Shown: piece after piece, positions 7,379 through 31,938 of the stretch
Position numbering within the stretch: the stretch's first letter is position 1
Layout of the letters: every line of letters begins with the position of its first letter
Virus record (IMG/VR): IMGVR_UViG_3300020045_002115
Location: 1 to 38,030 of that record
Reading direction: 5' to 3' (one strand)
Length of the DNA: 38,030 bases
Source: a virus
Lineage: Duplodnaviria > Caudoviricetes
The notes under the pieces: generated by a model
What the model was told of the DNA's origin: nothing
The model's input: the letters and a program-made list of their open reading frames with translations, nothing else
Database searches by the model: none
Made by a program: the position numbers and the translations under genes

Positions 7379-9790
7379 TTATCCTATTTTTACGAGTTCC
7401 ACTTTTGTACTCTCATCCTTCAGAGGTTTGTAATCCGAAATTTTATTAATGATGTAGTAAGTCCCATCCAAATAAATCGGTTTCTGTAAATCTAAATTAC
7501 GGATATGATTGTTATTTAGTTTCAGGTAGCACGTTACAAATACCCCGTCTTTTATCAGCTCGAAATAGTTTTTCCAGTATTTGGTAAAGAGTCCTTCTGA
7601 ACTATTCTCATCTTCGAAACTCAAACTCTCATCACCCGGCACATCCCAATTAATATCAAATGCTTTCGGGTATTCGTTTAGTACATTGCCAACGGAAATC
7701 CATCTCCATTGCGGGGCGTTGCCGTCTGCGTTGTTCTCATTCGTGTTGCCTTTGTAGTATAGGATTCTTGGTGCAAATTCTACTAACGGGTCGGGTGGTG
7801 TGGAATCGTCTGCGTAATCTTTCCAAAGTCTTGGCATCAATAACCCTCCCGTTGTCGGTGAAATGTCTTCATCATAAATATACCATGAAGGCGAAAGTTT
7901 CTTTGTGCTGATTTCCTCGCGTCCTTTTTTGAATCGCGCCGTGAGTGTTTCAAGATGAGAGAGGATTGGAAGGGGTAATGCTTTCTCAATCTCTTTTACA
8001 TAGCCGTCTTTTGAATCTTCTTTGTAACGAAGCAACTGTTCAATAGCCATATCCTTTAAGAACTCAATCTTAAATTCTTTAGTCTCATCAATAGGTGCGC
8101 CATCGGGATTTCGTGAACCATCTTCTAAATACTCTGACCAATTGACAGCGTTGGAAGTTGACTTGTAAAAGTCATCTCTCGGCTCGATGGTTACTTTCTT
8201 ATTCAGTATGTCCGTCTTGACAAAAAGATTGAAAAGAATAACTACATCTTTAAATAAGTCTATAATAGTTAGGTCTTGAAACTCGAAGGGGAGAAGGATT
8301 TCGGAGATGAAGGCGTTTTGAAAAATATTGCCAAACGAAATTATCTTGCTCATCTCGATACCGCACGAAAACAATCCGCCCCCTGCGCTGACATCTCTTA
8401 TGATTACGTTATACACATCCCCAATGACAACAGTCCCCAGCGGAATTACAGAGGATACATTATCATCAAATTCAGTAGTGGGATTCATGGCTCCCAGCTT
8501 GTCCTTTAAGAAAGCGTCAACCGTCCCTTCGTCTGCTGCGTTCTTTTGAATGACAAACTCAACGGAAGAAGCTGTATTGCCTCTGCATCCCAGCGTATCT
8601 ATCTCGGCCTGTATTAATTCTGCATGAGCATACGAGACTGTATAACTCGGATTGGCATAGACATTTGATGGGTCTGAAATTTCAGACGGGAACTCAATAG
8701 TGTGGTCTGTGGTACGTATTACCGCTGCCGTTCTCGTTACTGTGCCTCCTAAATTCGTATGCCCGTGGTCTGGTATCGCTCCAGGGTCAATGAGAAACGT
8801 ATGAGACAAATAGCTGCCAGGTGTATCTTCTTTGATTTTCTGAATTACAAACGTGCCATTGTAATCAGGCTCCGCGTTTCCGGTAATTGTTATCTGCTCA
8901 CCAGCAATAAATCCGTGACCATTGGTATCGGAATTGTCTGCTATTAACACAGACAAGCACGGGTATAGTGTCACGCCCTCCAATTCGGTTGTCCTATCTA
9001 TATTCACAATCGTATAACTATCATCAGGATGATTTGTAAAAATAAATTTAGAGGACGCATTCCCAATCGCCTCAAAACTAATATCGGGAACATCCGTCTT
9101 TGTCTTATTCGCCAGTAGTATCAGTTTCTTAAAAAAGGCAGACTCGAAAAATAAACTTTCAATCGTATAGCCAAAGTAGGCAAAGGCTTTCTGAAATACA
9201 TTCCTGATATAGAGAGCGGGGTACATATCAGAAGCCGTGACGTAGTTATGTAACCATGCTCCATAGTTGACCAACGGAAAAATATAGTCAATATCATCTG
9301 CGGTCAAGTCCCATGAATCTTCCATCGCTGCCGCTTCGAAAGGGATTGAATCAATAGGTAAATCGGATAACTTCAGATTTCCTAATTCGTCAATCCATGA
9401 AAAGTTATCGGAGAAAAAGATGAGGTCGAACTTATTTACTTCGCCTCTTAAATGAGTAACCGAATCCACCTGAATGAATCCATCTAATAAAGTTCCTGTT
9501 GAATCCTGTAACCTTGCTTCGAGTTTATTCTTTAGAGCCTCTACTTCAGTGTCCAAGATATTGACATTCCAAATGTGATTAAGCGCGGTGCAGTTCTTCT
9601 TTGTCGCTGGTATCTCGAAGGTTTTGGAGAACGAACTTTTCCTGTCATCAATCCTTTTGTCATTGGCGATGTTGGCTTTTATCTCCGCAACCTGGAACGT
9701 CAACGCTAACGGAAAGTCATCCGTATCGCCAAGGTCAAGAGAAACCTCCTCCGCGTCAATCAATACTATAATCTCTAAATCGTCAGTCAC
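7379..9790 (-). CDS. Tail tip/baseplate hub-like structural protein
   Basis: 803 aa acidic; SFSKTFEIPAT N-terminus and YIINKISDY...TKVELVK C-terminus typical of Bacteroidota siphovirus tail proteins. Confidence 0.7.
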   Translation of the reverse strand: MTDDLEIIVLIDAEEVSLDLGDTDDFPLALTFQVAEIKANIANDKRIDDRKSSFSKTFEIPATKKNCTALNHIWNVNILDTEVEALKNKLEARLQDSTGTLLDGFIQVDSVTHLRGEVNKFDLIFFSDNFSWIDELGNLKLSDLPIDSIPFEAAAMEDSWDLTADDIDYIFPLVNYGAWLHNYVTASDMYPALYIRNVFQKAFAYFGYTIESLFFESAFFKKLILLANKTKTDVPDISFEAIGNASSKFIFTNHPDDSYTIVNIDRTTELEGVTLYPCLSVLIADNSDTNGHGFIAGEQITITGNAEPDYNGTFVIQKIKEDTPGSYLSHTFLIDPGAIPDHGHTNLGGTVTRTAAVIRTTDHTIEFPSEISDPSNVYANPSYTVSYAHAELIQAEIDTLGCRGNTASSVEFVIQKNAADEGTVDAFLKDKLGAMNPTTEFDDNVSSVIPLGTVVIGDVYNVIIRDVSAGGGLFSCGIEMSKIISFGNIFQNAFISEILLPFEFQDLTIIDLFKDVVILFNLFVKTDILNKKVTIEPRDDFYKSTSNAVNWSEYLEDGSRNPDGAPIDETKEFKIEFLKDMAIEQLLRYKEDSKDGYVKEIEKALPLPILSHLETLTARFKKGREEISTKKLSPSWYIYDEDISPTTGGLLMPRLWKDYADDSTPPDPLVEFAPRILYYKGNTNENNADGNAPQWRWISVGNVLNEYPKAFDINWDVPGDESLSFEDENSSEGLFTKYWKNYFELIKDGVFVTCYLKLNNNHIRNLDLQKPIYLDGTYYIINKISDYKPLKDESTKVELVKIG

Positions 9791-11189: not shown

Positions 11190-11875
11190 TGTTCGTATTT
11201 ACTTTTATCGGGGTACAATCCACTCATTAACATTTCCATTCCGTGACCTAATGCTTTATCGGAGATACTGAAAAACTTCGCCTCTTTTAAAAGGTCAAGA
11301 TATTCGTAACGAAATTTCTTCTCGAATAGTTTGTAATCTTTTGAGGCTTCGAACGGAACAGAGTTCATATTCCCGTACATGGATTTGAGGAGCGTCTTTC
11401 CAAAGGGTACGTTATACTTAGATTTCTCAATCGTAAAAGGGGCGTGAATGTTGTAGCTCATCAATGGTAATCCTAATGCCTTTAATTGCTTTTGCGTTTC
11501 AAGCAAAAGAGATTGATATTGTCTGTTCCCTTTCATTCTTACAATATGTTCCGATAAAGTTCCCGTTGAGAAATAAGGAAACTCGTCAGCATCAAAATCT
11601 GATAAAAGAAAGTGGTCATCGTACACACAAAGGAACTTGTCACTTATAGCGGTGTGGCTAACTGCGAACTGCGTCTTCTTAATCACGTTCAGAACTTTGT
11701 CATTCACTTCTTTGTATTCGATGTGATGAACATTCTGAAGGAACGAAGGGCAATGACCGATGATAAAAACCTTGCCGATGTTCTTTAAGTACTTCTGCAT
11801 TGAACGCAAAGAATACCTCAGCTCGTTATCTTTCCATCCCGAACGGATGCCTACTATGTAAACGAGGTCGGTCAT
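11186..11875 (-). CDS. Stealth-like sugar-phosphotransferase/glycosyltransferase
   Basis: DLVY, ELRYSLRS (Stealth CR2-like) and YDD motifs; start MTDLVY overlaps upstream stop (ORF track start 11902). Confidence 0.7.
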   Translation of the reverse strand: MTDLVYIVGIRSGWKDNELRYSLRSMQKYLKNIGKVFIIGHCPSFLQNVHHIEYKEVNDKVLNVIKKTQFAVSHTAISDKFLCVYDDHFLLSDFDADEFPYFSTGTLSEHIVRMKGNRQYQSLLLETQKQLKALGLPLMSYNIHAPFTIEKSKYNVPFGKTLLKSMYGNMNSVPFEASKDYKLFEKKFRYEYLDLLKEAKFFSISDKALGHGMEMLMSGLYPDKSKYEQ

Positions 11876-19267: not shown

Positions 19268-20251
19268 TTAAATTTCTAATTGTAGTTGGCTGTTTGTCTT
19301 AAATCGGGTTTTGGCGGTTTCGAGATTTAAGATTGCCTGTTTGTAATAGCTGTCTTTTAATTCAATGCCGATTGCTTTTCGTCCCATTGAAACCGGGCTG
19401 TAAACTTCTGAACCAACGCCCATGAATGGAGTAAATACTAATTCATTCGGATTGCTGTAAAGTTCAACCAACCTGTCAATCACATCAAGCTGCAAAGGAT
19501 GTACGTGCTTTTCGTCATCTTCATCACGGCTTTCTTTGAAGGGTAAAACATTGTCAATTCGGATATCATCCCAAACGCTTGAGGCGTAACGCTGCCAAAT
19601 CAAATGGCTCATCTTATTCTCTTTTGGGTCGCCTTCAAAATTCTGCCATTTCTTTTTGAAGTCTGCATAGTTGCCGTAGGTTTCTATGTGGGCCGGAAGA
19701 AAAGGCGTTTCGCCAAAGTAATCATTCAGTCCAAAAGGATGGGTTACCGGTATTTCGTTTTCACCTGAACGGGTAAAGATTAAAACATAATCGGGCATGG
19801 CCGTAAAGCATCGGGTTGTATCTTCAACAATGAATTTGTGCATTAAACTTTGCACCATTGTTCTCATGCGAACTTTCAGCGGCTCTTTCCAAATCGTTAT
19901 ACGGTTACGATAATGAAAACCGTTTGCCTCATGGAGTTTAATTATCTCATGCGGAAAGTCCCAAAGAAAACTTTTGTTATCGTGAATGTCTGTACAATGA
20001 ACTGCATTAATCCTTCCAGGCTTAGTTACCCTTGCCATTTCGCCAATCAGGAAACCATACTGCTGCAAAAATTGCTCTTTGCTTTCACAGTTTGAAAAAT
20101 CATTTTCGCTTGAACTGTAATTGTACAACCCCGCAAATGGAGGGCTGTAAATTGATAGGTGAACACTTTTGTCCGGTAATGTCGGAAGCACATACATACA
20201 ATCTGAATTGTATAGCGCGAAATCTTCGGTAATGAGTTGCTCTTTTATCAT
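19268..20251 (-). CDS. DNA amino-methyltransferase (N4-C/N6-A, beta class)
   Basis: SPPF catalytic motif precedes PFMGVGS SAM-binding motif; GIELK. Confidence 0.9.
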   Translation of the reverse strand: MIKEQLITEDFALYNSDCMYVLPTLPDKSVHLSIYSPPFAGLYNYSSSENDFSNCESKEQFLQQYGFLIGEMARVTKPGRINAVHCTDIHDNKSFLWDFPHEIIKLHEANGFHYRNRITIWKEPLKVRMRTMVQSLMHKFIVEDTTRCFTAMPDYVLIFTRSGENEIPVTHPFGLNDYFGETPFLPAHIETYGNYADFKKKWQNFEGDPKENKMSHLIWQRYASSVWDDIRIDNVLPFKESRDEDDEKHVHPLQLDVIDRLVELYSNPNELVFTPFMGVGSEVYSPVSMGRKAIGIELKDSYYKQAILNLETAKTRFKTNSQLQLEI

Positions 20252-22162: not shown

Positions 22163-22272
22163 TTCCTTTTCTTCCTACTTGGTGCCAAACTTTTCATCTT
22201 CTGCCTTTGCCGCTCTTTTACCTCCTCACAAAATATTTTTAAGGCTATCTCCTTTTTATTGGGGCGGGTCAT
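22159..22272 (-). CDS. Small basic hypothetical protein (37 aa)
   Basis: MTRPNKKEIALK...; ATGA-coupled at both ends; below ORF-track cutoff. Confidence 0.45.
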   Translation of the reverse strand: MTRPNKKEIALKIFCEEVKERQRQKMKSLAPSRKKRK

Positions 22273-23105
22273 TGAAATAAATGTTGGTTCTCTGTAAAAC
22301 TTCTTTCGCACCCTACGCACATCGGTTGAAATAAATCAAGTTCTAATTGTTTCGGGTTCTTTTTCTTTGGCATTTTTTCTCCCCAGCCGAAACCAAATTT
22401 TTGTTTCACTATTTTTTCAAGTCCGTCAATCCATGCGCCCCATTTCGGAAATAAAACACTTGCCTCTATTCGCTCGACCTTGCTTTGCATTGTTCCGCAC
22501 AGACATTCTCCGCTTCTACATATTGCAAGTGATACGGGATTGCGCTTTACTCCGTTGCCATCAAGATACGAAATACATTCGGGCTTATCCCATTCGTTGA
22601 TAACATTTACCCAAATATTATTTCCGTTTTTCTCTACCTTAATCGGATTGACAAATTCCTTCATTCTGTTTTCAGATTCAAGCCGCCTGCCTCCGTTGAC
22701 GAATAGTATTTTTCTGCCCCGTTTATTTTGGCGAATGTTTTTAGAAGTGCATTTCCTAAAATGTTCCGCTTTCAAAACATGATAGGAGAAATTGTGAGCA
22801 TCCCTACCTACTCCAAAGAATCCCTTCCGCATAATGTACCGTTCGTAAGCGTCCCCTGCGTCGGCTTCAATGTAAATAGGCTTTTCATTTGCAGTTGTTG
22901 CCCGAACAAAGTCAAGGGTTTCCTGTATTCCCGTTCCCGTTATGCCGTGCATGATGTGGGTTAAGGGAACGCCCAACTCTTTGCAAACCGCCAACGCTGT
23001 CATTGAATCATCGCCACCCGAAAGCATCAGGACAACAGCATAGGGATTGTATTCAGCTATTGCCCTATCAATAATCTCCTTGCTCGATAATAATTTCTCG
23101 TTCAC
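22269..23105 (-). CDS. PAPS reductase-family (PP-loop) protein
   Basis: LSGGDDS PP-loop, GxRxxESxxR, RSGECLCG. Confidence 0.85.
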   Translation of the reverse strand: MNEKLLSSKEIIDRAIAEYNPYAVVLMLSGGDDSMTALAVCKELGVPLTHIMHGITGTGIQETLDFVRATTANEKPIYIEADAGDAYERYIMRKGFFGVGRDAHNFSYHVLKAEHFRKCTSKNIRQNKRGRKILFVNGGRRLESENRMKEFVNPIKVEKNGNNIWVNVINEWDKPECISYLDGNGVKRNPVSLAICRSGECLCGTMQSKVERIEASVLFPKWGAWIDGLEKIVKQKFGFGWGEKMPKKKNPKQLELDLFQPMCVGCERSFTENQHLFQ

Positions 23106-26236: not shown

Positions 26237-26557
26237 TCATAAGTTTTGAGCATTTTTTTCAACAATCCCCCTGTTCGCCTTTTGCTGGTCGGGGGTCATA
26301 AACCAAATTTTATGGTCGCGGTTCCATTCGTCCGATATAAGCACCCCTGCCTGCTTTAAATCCAACAAGCGCCTGGGCAATGAGTTTATGCCATGCTCCA
26401 CTATTGCATCGCGTACCGTTAATCTATTGCCCCCCATAAGCAGATTAAATACCTTCAGACATTGTTTGTTGAACTTGTGGCGGTTCTCATTTAAGTTTGT
26501 AAGGCTTTCTCTATTATTTTCAGCTTCGTGAACGGTAAAGAGGTCGGGTTGGCTCAT
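26237..26557 (-). CDS. Winged HTH DNA-binding protein
   Basis: LTVRDAIVEHGINSLPRRLLDLK pattern. Confidence 0.65.
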   Translation of the reverse strand: MSQPDLFTVHEAENNRESLTNLNENRHKFNKQCLKVFNLLMGGNRLTVRDAIVEHGINSLPRRLLDLKQAGVLISDEWNRDHKIWFMTPDQQKANRGIVEKNAQNL

Positions 26558-27384
26558 CTTAATGGAGATTTAACGCCCCGTAAATAGGTCGGGGAGTGGA
26601 TTAAATAATGCTTCTCAATCGTTCGGGTTGAGGCATGGCCAACCTTTGTAGCGACTACTGAAATCGGCACTTCGTTTTCAACTGACCATGTAATAGTGAA
26701 TCTTCGGATAGCATGAACGCCCAAATATTTTACTCCGACAATTCCGCAATATCTTTTAATGGTTTCGCGGATGCTTTCAGATGTATATGGGTGGCCGGCT
26801 TTCCATCCTTCAAAAAGGTAGCGGGTTGGTTTTTCTTTCTGTGAGTTCCAATACAAAGAGATTAACTTCCAAACTCCTTCCGATGGATAAATTACCCTAT
26901 CTTGATTTCCTTTAGCAGAGCGCAAAATAATACTCGCCTCTTTAGAGTTGCAATCAGAAAGGAGGATTGAACACGGCTCCGATATTCTTAATCCGCAGTC
27001 AATGATCAGCGCAAGTATAGCTTTCTGTTTTGCATTTTTAATAGCATTGAGAACTTTTAAAATATCCTGTTCTAAATAAACCGATTGAACTTTCTTGGTG
27101 CGCTTCGGATATGGAAGCTGCCGCCAATCAATGTTCCGGTCGTAAACCGTTGAAAATAGCCAGCGAATAATTATACAAATGTTTCGCCTGGTATTGTCAT
27201 TCTTAAACTCCGCTGCGAAATCCTGTAATTCTAAAATTGTCGCATCCTTTGGTTCGGGAAATCTTTTAAGGATTAAATTAAGGTTTGCCCTGTAAACCGG
27301 ATAAGTATTTTCTAAGCTATATCCCTTTAAGCGGATGTAATTGAAAAGCATTTTGTCACAATACTCGGCAGTAGTCAATTTCAT
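26554..27384 (-). CDS. Tyrosine recombinase, candidate cassette integrase
   Basis: GLRISE (R), AKG (K), HAIR (HxxR), VGH (H), KHY (Y); SAM-like N-domain; C-terminal KSPL; no IntI-type insertion visible. Confidence 0.9.
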   Translation of the reverse strand: MKLTTAEYCDKMLFNYIRLKGYSLENTYPVYRANLNLILKRFPEPKDATILELQDFAAEFKNDNTRRNICIIIRWLFSTVYDRNIDWRQLPYPKRTKKVQSVYLEQDILKVLNAIKNAKQKAILALIIDCGLRISEPCSILLSDCNSKEASIILRSAKGNQDRVIYPSEGVWKLISLYWNSQKEKPTRYLFEGWKAGHPYTSESIRETIKRYCGIVGVKYLGVHAIRRFTITWSVENEVPISVVATKVGHASTRTIEKHYLIHSPTYLRGVKSPLR

Positions 27385-27394
27385 AATCGTTTGA

Positions 27395-27429
27395 TTTTTA
27401 GAATAGGTTCATTAGTACCACCGTTATAA
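27395..27429 (+). other. attI-like primary recombination site (core GTTATAA at 27423-27429)
   Basis: GTT core 39 bp upstream of integrase start; GTTATAAAA is complementary to TTTTATAAC at 27524-27532; not preceded by an attC arm; left limit uncertain. Confidence 0.6.
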
Positions 27430-27725
27430 AACAGCTTGCTCATAACGGATTACATCTATTGCAGTTTCTACCCATGTGTGGTGCTTCTATAACATCATCG
27501 CTCCCACAAACATCGCAAACCGATTTTATAACATCAGGTTGGACAAAATTTTTATTTGCTTCCCTTAGTGCTTTAATTTCAGCGTTCATCTTCGTAATTT
27601 GTCTCTGTAAAGGCTTTATTGCATTTTCAACATACATTTCTACACTCTGGTCTTGTAACATATTTTATCTATTTTAAGTTATCGTTTTCAAATCCGCAAA
27701 TAAAAACTTCGCCAACCTGCGGACG
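27424..27725 (+). mobile_element. Gene cassette 1 (302 bp)
   Basis: Bounded by G|TT cores at 27423 and 27725; ends in attC-like site 1. Confidence 0.7.
27440..27661 (-). CDS. Small coiled-coil plus CxxC...CxxC protein (cassette 1)
   Basis: 73 aa; starts in the attC1 loop and reads through its arm (NKNFVQPDVIK). Confidence 0.7.
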   Translation of the reverse strand: MLQDQSVEMYVENAIKPLQRQITKMNAEIKALREANKNFVQPDVIKSVCDVCGSDDVIEAPHMGRNCNRCNPL

Positions 27726-27731
27726 TTATAT
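27526..27731 (+). repeat. attC-like site 1 (206 bp)
   Basis: TTATAAC-AT-CAGGTTGG...TTTTTATTTGC / GCAAATAAAAA...CCAACCTG-CGGAC-GTTATAT. Confidence 0.75.
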
Positions 27732-28647
27732 GAAATGCGCCTTGTTTCATAGTGAGCTTTCTGCTTCATTCTCTTTTTTAATAAAATTATTTTTTTCTTC
27801 CTCCCCTAAAAAAGAAAACAAATTTGGTTGCGTAGATTTTTCTACTCTGATTATTCCTCTTGCCATATCCAATATCAACAAACCAAGTTCAGGAAATACG
27901 CAGTTCCGCAACACTTGTCTTTTGTTCGGTATTTTTATTTCGCTCAAATCAAATCCGTGTAACGACATCAGTTCCGGTATTTGAGCTTCACGGATAATTC
28001 TCTTTCGTGTTCCGTGCATCAGCGTTCCTATCTGCACTCCATAATCTTTTTTCGGTATAGTAAAATTTGACCAGAAGTAATGCCTTCCGCTTTCTTGTGG
28101 CTTTATCAATGGTTCGTAATAACTAATCACATTCTCCACTACATATTTTCCTTTAAACCATTCTTGCAGCAAAATTATTTCCTGATATAATTTCATATCG
28201 GGATATTTTACCGCCCATCTTCCGCCATTTGAGTAATTGATTTTGCTATGTGTCGGGCAAGGCGGTGAACTCCAAATGAAATCAAACTCCTGATAATGTT
28301 CTAACAGGTATTGGTGAGCATCGCCAACAATAACTTTATCATCAGGAAAAAATTTCTGATACACTCCTGCAATATCGGGATTGAACTCAACGGCTGTTAC
28401 TTCAACATCAGTCCACAGTTTTCTGTTGCCTCCAATTCCGCAGTATAGATTTAAAACTTTCATTTGTTCCAAATGATAAAAGGTTTGCCCACGCTCAAAA
28501 AAATAATTTTATTAAAAAAGGTTTCTCGTTTCATAGTTAGTTTTGTGGAAGCGCACTTCATATAACACCGGCTTTAATGCAATTTTGTTTTTGAGTTTTC
28601 TATTTTTTGAATTTGGTAAAAACAAAACTGACATAAAGCCGTAACCG
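27726..28647 (+). mobile_element. Gene cassette 2 (922 bp), C5-MTase
   Basis: GTTATATGAAATGCGC (27725-27740) is complementary at 15/16 positions to GCGCACTTCATATAAC (28551-28566). Confidence 0.8.
27747..28463 (-). CDS. DNA cytosine-5 methyltransferase-like (short phage type)
   Basis: LNLYCGIGG, SSPPC, VVENV motifs; likely start MKVLNLY (ORF track start 28472). Confidence 0.85.
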   Translation of the reverse strand: MKVLNLYCGIGGNRKLWTDVEVTAVEFNPDIAGVYQKFFPDDKVIVGDAHQYLLEHYQEFDFIWSSPPCPTHSKINYSNGGRWAVKYPDMKLYQEIILLQEWFKGKYVVENVISYYEPLIKPQESGRHYFWSNFTIPKKDYGVQIGTLMHGTRKRIIREAQIPELMSLHGFDLSEIKIPNKRQVLRNCVFPELGLLILDMARGIIRVEKSTQPNLFSFLGEEEKNNFIKKENEAESSL

Positions 28648-28653
28648 TTACAA
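28560..28653 (+). repeat. attC-like site 2 (94 bp)
   Basis: ATATAAC-AC-CGGCTTTA...TTTTGTTTT / AAAACAAAA...TAAAGCCG-TAACC-GTTACAA. Confidence 0.8.
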
Positions 28654-29499
28654 GCAATGCTACATTCGTTTTCATATTGAGCTTTTCGTTTCAACTTTTA
28701 ATAATTTTTTTCCCTCCTTTAAAAAAGAAAGTAATTGTTCACCTACAAATTTCGTGTAAGCCGGTGGAATACTTTGCGCAAGTTCATATTGCCCCAACCA
28801 ATTCAATCCGGTCATTTCGCCAACCTCTTTCACACCGGAGAAATGCCCAACATATTGTATAAATTCTTCCGGCTTTGCTCTCCTACCCATCTTTGCATTT
28901 TTGGCTATATGCTTTGGATGCTCCGGCACTTGTATTTCAAAATTGCTTTCAAACAATCTGTGCCTGTAAGTCCGTAAGCCAAACATTGCACCGCACAATT
29001 CAACCGGATTTATTAACGGGCTTCCCGGCACATTCTCAATTACAAACGGCTTTCTTGTTTTAAGCAATTCAACTCTTGTTGCCTCAATCAAGTCCGGGTA
29101 AATTTTGCCGTTAATCCTAAATTGCATTGATGCCATTGAATATCCTTGACAGGGCGGTGATGCGTGTATTGCATCGTATAAGTGCCAATTCTCTTTCAGG
29201 TATTCAATAGCATCTGCCTGTATAAATTTACCCCTGTATTTTGGTTGTGGCTCAATGTCAATTCCGGTTACATCAAATCCGGCTTGCTCATATCCAAAAC
29301 TTGCACCACCGGCACAGCAGTATAAATCAAGTAACTTAAAATGCCCTCGCTCAAAAAAATTATTAAAAGTTGTTTCGTTTTCCATATCAATATTTCTACT
29401 TAATTAACCGCACTGCTTGTAACACGGGCTTTAATTCAATTTGCTTTTTTCTTGTTTATTTTTTAGGGGCAAAAAGCAAACTAAATAAAGCCCCAACCG
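28648..29499 (+). mobile_element. Gene cassette 3 (852 bp), C5-MTase
   Basis: GTTACAAGCAATGC (28647-28660) is complementary at 13/14 positions to GCACTGCTTGTAAC (29410-29423). Confidence 0.8.
28672..29385 (-). CDS. DNA cytosine-5 methyltransferase-like (short phage type)
   Basis: LDLYCCAGG, ASPPCQ, VIENV, RHRLFE, SIPPAY. Confidence 0.85.
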   Translation of the reverse strand: MENETTFNNFFERGHFKLLDLYCCAGGASFGYEQAGFDVTGIDIEPQPKYRGKFIQADAIEYLKENWHLYDAIHASPPCQGYSMASMQFRINGKIYPDLIEATRVELLKTRKPFVIENVPGSPLINPVELCGAMFGLRTYRHRLFESNFEIQVPEHPKHIAKNAKMGRRAKPEEFIQYVGHFSGVKEVGEMTGLNWLGQYELAQSIPPAYTKFVGEQLLSFLKEGKKLLKVETKSSI

Positions 29500-29505
29500 T
29501 TAGGA
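29417..29505 (+). repeat. attC-like site 3 (89 bp)
   Basis: TTGTAAC-AC-GGGCTTTA...TTTGCTTTTT / AAAAAGCAAA...TAAAGCCC-CAACC-GTTAGGA. Confidence 0.8.
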
Positions 29506-30368: not shown

Positions 30369-31027
30369 TTTGCCATTAGGGATTTATGAAGTTTTCGGAA
30401 AGACTTGGTTTCATTGCCGTTCAGGATGCGTTCAGCGTCCGTTATTTCGGCAGGGGTGAGAGATTCCTTCTTTAGTTCAAAGAGCGTTTGTAGCTCATCT
30501 TTGTCAATCGTAGCCCCATTCAGGTCAACATTAATCTCCCTGAAATCCTCTTTATTGTAAATGTCGGCAGCTATGCCTATTTCGGAGGCGCATTTTTTCA
30601 GACAATCGGTTGCTGCGGCCTTCAGGTCGTTGCCGATTGACAAAGGTACTTTCGGGGCGTTCGCGGCCTTTTCGGCATCGGTTTGTTTCCGGTAAATAAT
30701 ATCCTTATTCCCGAATTGCATTTTAATAATTTCCTTCCCTCCACTTCGACAAGTCAGGCGACCTTTTACTATGGCCTCATCATGCAGGATAATCTGCTCC
30801 ACAATTTCAAATGACCAGTCCCATCCGAACATAAGGTTAAGGCACTTCTTTACGTAGCCCCCGGTAACGTAGTCCCATTTGCCGCCTCCCTTTGCCGGGC
30901 GTTGTTTAACATATTGTTCAGGAGTTTTCTTTAAAAGGCGCTCAAGCTGAAATTTATTGAGAGCGTTGTTTTCAACCAGGGAAAGTTCTTCGGGTTGAAT
31001 TAATGCGAGTTCATTCTTAGTTTCCAT
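30365..31027 (-). CDS. Rad52/22-family single-strand annealing protein (Sak-like)
   Basis: LNLMFGWDWSFEI, LKAAATDCLKKCASEIGIAADIY. Confidence 0.85.
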   Translation of the reverse strand: METKNELALIQPEELSLVENNALNKFQLERLLKKTPEQYVKQRPAKGGGKWDYVTGGYVKKCLNLMFGWDWSFEIVEQIILHDEAIVKGRLTCRSGGKEIIKMQFGNKDIIYRKQTDAEKAANAPKVPLSIGNDLKAAATDCLKKCASEIGIAADIYNKEDFREINVDLNGATIDKDELQTLFELKKESLTPAEITDAERILNGNETKSFRKLHKSLMAK

Positions 31028-31741: not shown

Positions 31742-31938
31742 ACTAACTTAATTGAATAACAAACTAATTGTAAATAATCATTGAGAGGGCGGTTACAGAA
31801 ATCTGATATGAGCAATTGCCCCGCCTTGCGTACTTCAGCCGGAACCATGACTTAGTACAAAATGCGCCTCCGAAATAACCCTGGTTGTCGAACTTGCGGC
31901 AAAGTAGCTGGCTCTTAATGGATGGGGAGAGTTTCATT

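What the first reader, a model, noticed from the sequence alone, without database searches (positions are those of the whole stretch)
27526..29505. Non-canonical attC geometry conserved by covariation: AAC-N2-[8 bp]...[8 bp]-N5-GTT
Seen: all three sites have exactly 2 nt between AAC and a perfect 8-bp arm on the left and exactly 5 nt between the partner arm and GTT on the right. The arms differ in sequence (CAGGTTGG, CGGCTTTA, GGGCTTTA) yet remain paired. An unpaired A follows each left arm (27543, 28577, 29434), and inner mismatches are A-C on the top strand, i.e. G-T wobbles on the bottom strand. Established: classical attC sites recombine as folded bottom strands with extrahelical bases and roughly symmetric ~5-nt spacers. 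Inference: a distinct class of single-stranded recombination site with an asymmetric 2/5 internal loop.
Basis: partly seen in the sequence, partly recalled or inferred. Interest (0 to 1): 0.85.

Follow-up and report, generated by a model that had tools for sequence, protein, structure and literature searches.

The report
Lopsided integron-like hairpins in a phage
This phage keeps three small gene cassettes between lopsided DNA hairpins next to a recombinase that lacks the part integron enzymes use to read folded DNA, and relatives swap such cassettes exactly at these sites, so it is likely a second, simpler way of shuffling genes through folded single-stranded DNA.

Summary
In detail: three sites with AAC-N2-[8 bp]…[8 bp]-N5-GTT, where 0 of 200 shuffles gave more than one. 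They bound three cassettes (two C5 methyltransferases, one small ORF) that end at an attI-like half-site beside an intact 276-aa tyrosine recombinase lacking the IntI insertion.

In 190 related sites the asymmetry is the rule, but it is 2/5 (54) or 2/6 (136). Counted from the invariant T-A pair, the short arm has the classical 7 nt, and the strand that is probably cut has 3-4 extra. The bulged base is not a family feature (8 of 184). G·T wobbles favour the window's minus strand whichever way the genes face.

In cultured Flavobacterium phages 57 of 69 junctions fall at TAAC. One published family site was the only one of six that IntI1 failed to recombine.

The closest known systems are integrons and Bacteroidales rAID-1, whose repeats show similar asymmetry. 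I found no paper describing the geometry. This scan found the same system many times on other DNA. Recombination as folded single strands is inferred, not shown. Verdict: new variant of a known kind.

The parts
26554..27384 (-). Tyrosine recombinase, 276 aa, catalytic R133 K158 H224 R227 H250 Y260, no IntI insertion; transcribed away from the array
   Evidence: PF00589 E 5.8e-19; TIGR02249 38 bits vs cut-off 265; about 40 residues missing against IntI chain 2a3v; residues; model pLDDT 94.4
27385..27425 (.). attI-like half-site; core G|TT at 27423-27425 on + (AA|C on minus), no partner arm
   Evidence: Same half-site upstream of 8 of 9 close homologues that have upstream DNA
27424..27725 (.). 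Cassette 1: short body with self-complementary ends plus site 1
   Evidence: End pairing; body laid with foreign flanks in run X3, 27422-27535
27440..27661 (-). 73-aa ORF that starts inside the loop of site 1 and runs through its short arm; two CxxC pairs near the C-terminus; no Pfam match
27530..27727 (-). Hairpin site 1, 198 nt; arms 27535-27542 and 27712-27719; 5/2 on the folding (minus) strand
   Evidence: too long for the covariance model, which missed it
27726..28647 (.). Cassette 2: C5 methyltransferase cassette plus site 2; 13-bp outer end stem with one wobble
27747..28472 (-). C5 cytosine DNA methyltransferase ORF, 241 aa
   Evidence: PF00145 E 3.5e-08
27773..27796 (.). Inner 24-bp perfect inverted repeat, partner at 28497-28520
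   Evidence: I2
28497..28520 (.). Partner arm of the 24-bp inner inverted repeat
   Evidence: I2
28564..28649 (-). Hairpin site 2, 86 nt; arms 28569-28576 and 28634-28641
   Evidence: 39.9 bits with a model built without window sites
28648..29499 (.). Cassette 3: C5 methyltransferase cassette plus site 3; 11-bp outer end stem with one wobble
   Evidence: separate contigs of run X1 cover 28646-29504 with loose ends at both boundaries
28672..29385 (-). C5 cytosine DNA methyltransferase ORF, 237 aa
   Evidence: PF00145 E 5.6e-07
28692..28711 (.). Inner 20-bp perfect inverted repeat, partner at 29353-29372
   Evidence: I7
29353..29372 (.). Partner arm of the 20-bp inner inverted repeat
   Evidence: I7
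29421..29501 (-). Hairpin site 3, 81 nt; arms 29426-29433 and 29486-29493; far boundary of the array
   Evidence: 43.5 bits; its outer flank has no partner on the gene strand of the window

Best explanation
The three hairpins bound three gene cassettes that end at a half-site beside a short tyrosine recombinase lacking the IntI insertion, and they are likely recombination sites that this enzyme uses as folded single strands of the window's minus strand, cutting within TAAC (probably AA|C). Shown: the anatomy, structure conservation by compensatory change in relatives, cassette exchange at TAAC in related phages, and the missing IntI insertion. Inferred: the minus strand extrudes as a hairpin during replication or transcription. 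Folding brings a conserved T-A box to 7 nt from the core on the short arm, as in classical attC, and loops out 3-4 extra nt on the cut strand just after AACG. One strand exchange with the double-stranded half-site or another hairpin inserts or excises a cassette, and replication resolves the junction. The one-sided loop and fixed G·T wobbles, not flipped-out bases, would tell the enzyme which strand to use; this is the weakest step, about 0.45. Genes lie on the folding strand and would be read from the phage's upstream operon. The methyltransferases likely shield phage DNA from host restriction.
For: Geometry: 216 of 251 hairpin calls in 69 sequences have a 3- or 4-nt offset, against 10 of 46 in two shuffled sets. 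15 of 16 arm pairs show changes on both sides; covariation 0.569 vs 0.153 shuffled and at most 0.143 slid (50 of the sites; the structure was derived from these sites). Strand: G·T next to the core in 179 of 184; G·T at arm position 12 in 127 of 184; that strand folds better in 164 of 184. G after AAC marks the recombining R' box of classical attC (PMC2727003, passages). The folding strand is the coding strand in phage arrays (78 of 81) but the non-coding strand in bacterial loci L220-L222, so it follows recombination polarity, not mRNA. Cassettes: ends pair at 5 or more of 6 positions in 102 of 136, against 76 of 2000 random pairings. Crossover: 57 of 69 distinct junctions among 11 cultured Flavobacterium phages lie at TAAC and 1 near GTT; those 57 bracket the cut inside TAAC. 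L005/L006 and L010/L011 share the sequence from TAAC into the recombinase gene but differ upstream of it. Enzyme: half-site beside 8 of 9 close homologues; catalytic residues intact. IntI1 did not recombine P12002L_attC1, which is a 5/2 site (PMC9892861 section 3.4 and Table S3).
Against: No biochemical or genetic test of this enzyme was found. The AAC/GTT core is weakly paired in predicted folds of sites 2 and 3. One arm position runs the other way: C·A on the folding strand in 82 of 184 sites. Of five array-bearing phage records tested, four have no PF00589 gene, so the enzyme is often supplied in trans and its identity there is unknown. L002 has the recombinase with no adjacent half-site. 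Hairpin 3 occurs in runs X3 and X4 with foreign sequence on both sides, so hairpin and body do not always travel together. 12 of 69 junctions lie away from TAAC, most inside hairpin loops. The IntI1 failure is one site in one assay.
Confidence: 0.72

Rival explanations
1. Cassettes are exchanged at the TAAC core as ordinary double-stranded Xer-type sites, and the hairpins are kept for an RNA role (processing, termination or translation control).
For: In phages the folding strand is the coding strand (78 of 81), G·T wobbles read equally well as G·U, ORFs can start inside the loop, and the enzyme's best structural and sequence matches are archaeal XerA.
Against: In bacterial loci L220-L222 the same fold lies on the non-coding strand. 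Spacer sequences differ between partner sites, which duplex tyrosine recombination does not tolerate (PMC2727003 passage). No Rfam family matches the sites at its cut-off. Terminator-like hits are at chance level (4 vs 3.2).
Confidence: 0.12
2. The sites are folded recombination substrates, but the strand is chosen by some feature other than the one-sided loop, or both strands or a cruciform are used. For example, the window's extra T could act like the second extrahelical base of attC.
For: All three window sites can place a T outside the helix on the 3' arm, where classical attC has a second flipped base. A 5'-arm T bulge occurs in 50 of 184 relatives and a C·A mismatch in 82.
Against: 126 of 184 relatives have no bulge at all, and the enzyme lacks the helix that docks such bases.
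Confidence: 0.1
3. These are degenerate classical attC sites served by a host IntI, and the neighbouring gene is an unrelated phage integrase.
For: The AAC/GTT cores and the G after AAC are shared with attC; HattCI called one family site an attC (PMC9892861).
Against: That site was the one of six IntI1 did not recombine. Classical Vibrio sites are symmetric under the same kind of caller (4 of 5 calls) and the family model finds nothing in two classical integron phage loci. The half-site is conserved at the recombinase's 5' end.
Confidence: 0.05

Closest known systems
Integrons: IntI, attI and attC cassette arrays (class 1; Vibrio VCR; VchIntIA structure 2a3v)
   Same: Recombinase next to an attI-like core with cassettes extending away from its 5' end; AAC/GTT cores; G after AAC on the folding strand; self-complementary cassette ends; exchange at the core; 7 nt between the conserved box and TTA on the 3' arm; the newest cassette varies most (6 different ends before the half-site in 11 phages).
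   Different: No I2 insertion; no extrahelical G; 3-4 extra nt on the cut strand; fixed G·T wobbles; phage ORFs inverted relative to classical cassettes; long inner inverted repeats in 18 of 70 cassettes.
rAID-1 arrays of Bacteroidales (Ross et al., bioRxiv 10.1101/471110; PMC12247911)
   Same: XerD-like recombinase with a gene array and intergenic repeats called reminiscent of integrons. In a locus of that layout (L223, label inferred from gene content) 8 of 8 repeats have a 2-3 nt offset in the same direction and self-complementary cassette ends.
   Different: rAID-like sites are 42-46 nt with an ATT/AAT core, lie downstream of a co-oriented 368-aa recombinase (25% identical over 163 aa), and carry immunity genes on the classical strand. 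The window's model does not hit them. The passages read report only motif enrichment, with no fold or recombination test.
Phage CALINs of Qi et al. 2023 (PMC9892861), Polaribacter phage P12002L
   Same: P12002L carries six family sites by my caller and methyltransferase cassettes; its attC1 is a 5/2 site.
   Different: Treated there as ordinary attC. attC1 failed with IntI1, and the paper's attC2 is the array's terminal half-site read backwards.
Archaeal XerA / NF040815 recombinases
   Same: Best sequence and fold matches (4a8e, 5hxy); no insertion in the catalytic domain.
   Different: Only 109.6 bits against the 220 cut-off. XerA acts on duplex dif sites (recalled), not on cassette arrays.

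Membership tests
Integron (IntI/attI/attC) | Tyrosine recombinase with intact catalytic residues next to the array | tested here: met
   R133 K158 H224 R227 H250 Y260
Integron (IntI/attI/attC) | IntI-specific insertion with the I2 helix | tested here: not met
   Profile 172-201 spans 2a3v 176-245; TIGR02249 38 of 265 bits, against 494 for a true IntI
Integron (IntI/attI/attC) | attI core beside the recombinase's 5' end | tested here: met
   Half-site at 27423-27425; 8 of 9 homologues
Integron (IntI/attI/attC) | Cassettes bounded by AAC/GTT cores with exchange at the core | tested here: met
   102 of 136 paired ends; 57 of 69 junctions
Integron (IntI/attI/attC) | Roughly symmetric unpaired central spacer | tested here: not met
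   Offset 3 or 4 in 216 of 251 calls; symmetric in 4 of 5 calls on a Vibrio control
Integron (IntI/attI/attC) | Extrahelical G in L'' and a second extrahelical T | tested here: not met
   No G bulge; any 3'-arm bulge in 8 of 184. The window's sites do allow a T bulge.
Integron (IntI/attI/attC) | Cassette ORFs on the top strand, read from a Pc promoter near attI | tested here: not met
   Window ORFs and 78 of 81 phage cassette ORFs lie on the folding strand; promoter scan at chance level, 12 vs 10.8
Integron (IntI/attI/attC) | Recombination of the folded bottom strand, resolved by replication | not testable with these tools
   Only indirect: wobble bias and covariation
rAID-1 | Recombinase above 44% identity to BF9343_RS08045 | tested here: inconclusive
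   The reference protein was not fetched; 25% over 163 aa to the rAID-like L223 protein makes membership unlikely
rAID-1 | Recombinase 5' of co-oriented genes | tested here: not met
   The array lies upstream of the recombinase
rAID-1 | Orphan immunity cargo | tested here: not met
   Two methyltransferases and one unknown ORF
rAID-1 | Conserved intergenic repeats | tested here: met
   Same direction of asymmetry and paired cassette ends, though a different sequence family

The most novel reading that the evidence does not exclude
A second route to single-strand site-specific recombination: a Xer-like enzyme without the I2 helix recombines folded DNA by reading a one-sided 3-4 nt loop and G·T wobbles, and one site grammar lets Bacteroidota, their plasmids and their phages trade cassettes, including methyltransferases, rAID immunity genes and an erm(F) gene. 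Whether it is a relic of the stage before IntI gained I2 or an independent invention is open.
Probability: 0.45. Interest if true: 0.85.

Novelty: new variant of a known kind. Interest (0 to 1): 0.62.

Why it matters
The I2 helix is described as the innovation that let integron integrases recombine folded single strands (PMC7790495), and recombinases lacking it near attC sites were judged not to be IntI (PMC4889954). A working enzyme without it would separate hairpin recombination from flipped-base recognition, and this window supplies a small complete test set: enzyme, docking site and three sites. It would also explain the variable methyltransferase content of cultured Flavobacterium phages, which their describers tied to plating efficiency without noting cassettes in the passages read (PMC7077304). 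It would give rAID-1 a testable acquisition mechanism, and it points to a gene pool that standard integron finders largely miss.

Tried and rejected
Single-protein scan of viral contigs: no relative. Two DNA patterns (63 loci) gave no arrays and no recombinase and were dropped. 68 loci with distant recombinases of at most about 30% identity or short matches (L014-L081) were not scanned for sites. Duplicates and loci without upstream DNA (L001, L004, L009, L012, L145) were left out.

Rfam: no family at its cut-off over the sites. Promoter and terminator scans: chance level. The covariance model missed site 1 (too long), the short P12002L sites and the rAID-like repeats, so it is not a complete detector. 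On Shewanella classical sites my caller slipped to a 3/7 register in 2 of 4 calls, so that control is only partly clean.

The tree (33 rows, one IntI) places the recombinase with other phage-array enzymes (93/94), but its separation from IntI and XerC/D is weak (88/67) and is not used as evidence of origin. The half-site's spacer can be read as 6 or 8 bp and is unresolved. No RNA holder was listed. No bacterial chromosomes were surveyed; bacterial evidence is six plasmid loci, of which the Clostridium one (L224) had no sites. No complex prediction was run.

Rejected: a fixed 2/5 rule, the bulged base as a class marker, and the reading that the short arm is a shortened spacer.

Full report
CONTEXT. 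The window is a whole virus record with direct terminal repeats. It has portal, Clp protease, terminase, helicase and Rad52-like genes, and nearly all long ORFs lie on the minus strand. The host is not shown; Bacteroidota is inferred from relatives that infect Flavobacterium and Polaribacter.

OBSERVATION. The three sites are as described and exceed chance: none of 200 shuffles gave more than one. The minus strand folds better at each. In predicted folds of sites 2 and 3 the AAC/GTT core is unpaired or only partly paired.

ANATOMY. Reading the + strand away from the recombinase (26554-27384, minus): a half-site with G|TT at 27423, a 110-nt body, site 1, an 842-nt methyltransferase body, site 2, a 777-nt methyltransferase body, site 3. 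Each body begins with the complement of its own end. Both methyltransferase cassettes also carry perfect 24- and 20-bp inner inverted repeats. Repeats of 12 nt or more occur in 18 of 70 related cassettes and 0 of 400 cross-cassette controls, so an excised single-stranded cassette could fold as a rod. A 73-aa ORF starts in the loop of site 1.

RECOMBINASE. It matches PF00589, has all six catalytic residues and gives a confident model (pLDDT 94.4). It scores 38 bits on the IntI model (cut-off 265) and lacks about 40 residues where IntI chain 2a3v has its insertion. None of the rows shown from the 49-sequence alignment has one (49 of 87 hits were aligned). Eleven distinct loci encode homologues of 51% identity or more. 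Nine have upstream DNA and 8 of those have the same half-site; L002 does not. L005/L006 and L010/L011 match from TAAC onward and differ upstream of it.

FAMILY GEOMETRY. I scanned 69 sequences, 58 of them seeded by a pattern that presupposes a 6-nt spacer. 216 of 251 calls have a 3- or 4-nt offset, against 10 of 46 in shuffles. Of 190 unique sites in 52 loci, 54 are 5/2 and 136 are 6/2; the set includes the window's three and a few visibly false calls. In 184 sites kept after length and edge filters:
- the pair next to the core is G·T in 179;
- arm position 4 is T-A in 178;
- position 12 is G·T in 127;
- position 3 is C·A in 82;
- 126 have no bulge, 50 a 5'-arm bulge and 8 a 3'-arm bulge.
Over positions 0-16 there are 264 G·T against 109 A·C, 82 of the latter at position 3. 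On 50 aligned sites, 15 of 16 arm pairs change on both sides (the structure came from these sites, so the controls are lenient). A model built without the window's sites finds sites 2 and 3 on the minus strand and nothing in two classical integron phage loci.

REINTERPRETATION (inference from these counts). The G after AAC identifies the minus strand as the classical bottom strand. Measured from the invariant T-A pair, the short arm has 7 nt to TTA, as in the Vibrio control sites printed, and the long arm has 10-11. The novelty is therefore 3-4 extra nt on the strand that is probably cut, not a shortened spacer.

CROSSOVER. Among 11 cultured Flavobacterium phage arrays, 57 of 69 distinct junctions fall at TAAC, 1 near GTT and 11 elsewhere, most inside hairpin loops. 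In the 57, shared blocks start no later than the T and end no earlier than the C. Six different cassette ends precede one fixed half-site. For the window itself, separate contigs of run X1 cover 28646-29504 with loose ends at both cassette boundaries, and X3 also breaks at 28646; no contig spans the whole. Against a strict unit, hairpin 3 appears alone with foreign flanks in X3 and X4. Four of five array-bearing phage records tested lack any PF00589 gene.

STRAND AND RNA. Phage ORFs lie on the folding strand in 78 of 81 cassettes. In plasmid loci L220-L222 the fold is on the non-coding strand, which argues for a DNA role.

LITERATURE.
- Qi et al. 2023 (PMC9892861; passages, sections 2.2 and 3.4, supplement part 1 of 2; figures not seen) tested both strands of six phage sites with IntI1. 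The only failure, P12002L_attC1, is a 5/2 family site.
- Ross et al. (10.1101/471110; passages; Fig. S4 motifs not visible and could bear on novelty) and PMC12247911 (passages) describe rAID-1. A locus of that layout shows the same asymmetry in 8 of 8 repeats.
- PMC2727003, PMC7790495, PMC4889954, PMC8138268, PMC8618304 and PMC7077304 were read as passages only; Table S13 of the last was not seen.
- Searches listed no paper on this geometry or this recombinase clade. The library lacks most subscription papers.
- This scan's notes hold 187 findings on the same kind of array and several on the geometry. They are unchecked leads, not support.

VERDICT. The sites are real and work like integron attC sites, but the system fails three defining integron tests (I2 insertion, symmetric spacer, extrahelical G) and is not rAID-1 proper. 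My estimates: cassette exchange points about 0.95; this enzyme acts on them about 0.85; folded single-strand substrate about 0.8; loop as strand signal about 0.45. New variant of a known kind; interest 0.62.

Noticed in passing
L219:4607-5899 (Flagellimonas plasmid NZ_CP092416.1): erm(F) lies in a family cassette: a 6/2 hairpin before it, self-complementary ends, then a half-site and an NF040815 recombinase.
   Followed up: partly
L223:6858-12369 (Parabacteroides plasmid): rAID-like immunity array with eight 42-46 nt asymmetric repeats that use an ATT/AAT core and have chain-complementary cassette ends.
   Followed up: partly
window 27773-27796/28497-28520 and 28692-28711/29353-29372: Long perfect inner inverted repeats flank both methyltransferase ORFs; similar repeats in 18 of 70 related cassettes. 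They may record how genes are loaded into cassettes.
   Followed up: partly
window 28474-28535: A short reading frame upstream of the 241-aa methyltransferase resembles the N-terminus of the 237-aa one (direct repeats D6 and D16), so the two cassettes share an end scaffold.
   Followed up: no
L216:29175-29240 (Polaribacter phage P12002L): The published attC2 is the array's terminal half-site read on the other strand, which explains the 'divergent' sites noted in that paper.
   Followed up: yes
L220:6959-7098, 9054-9193, 11435-11574: Three copies of a 140-nt near-perfect palindromic element with AAC/GTT ends sit inside a Chryseobacterium plasmid array.
   Followed up: no
L146 and L206-L215 (Lillamyvirus, Muminvirus and Hattifnattvirus phages): Arrays of 9-15 sites with a fixed half-site; the one genome tested (L146) has no tyrosine recombinase. 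These are cultured systems ready for tests.
   Followed up: partly
P0034: A 390-aa homologue of the recombinase also carries PF01541 (name recalled as GIY-YIG nuclease).
   Followed up: no
window 30564-30596 and 31859-31891: 33-nt inverted repeat, 82% complementary, 1262 nt apart; unexplained.
   Followed up: no
window 19268-20251 and 22269-23105: An N6/N4 methyltransferase and a PAPS-reductase-domain gene lie outside the array; no family site was called near them.
   Followed up: no
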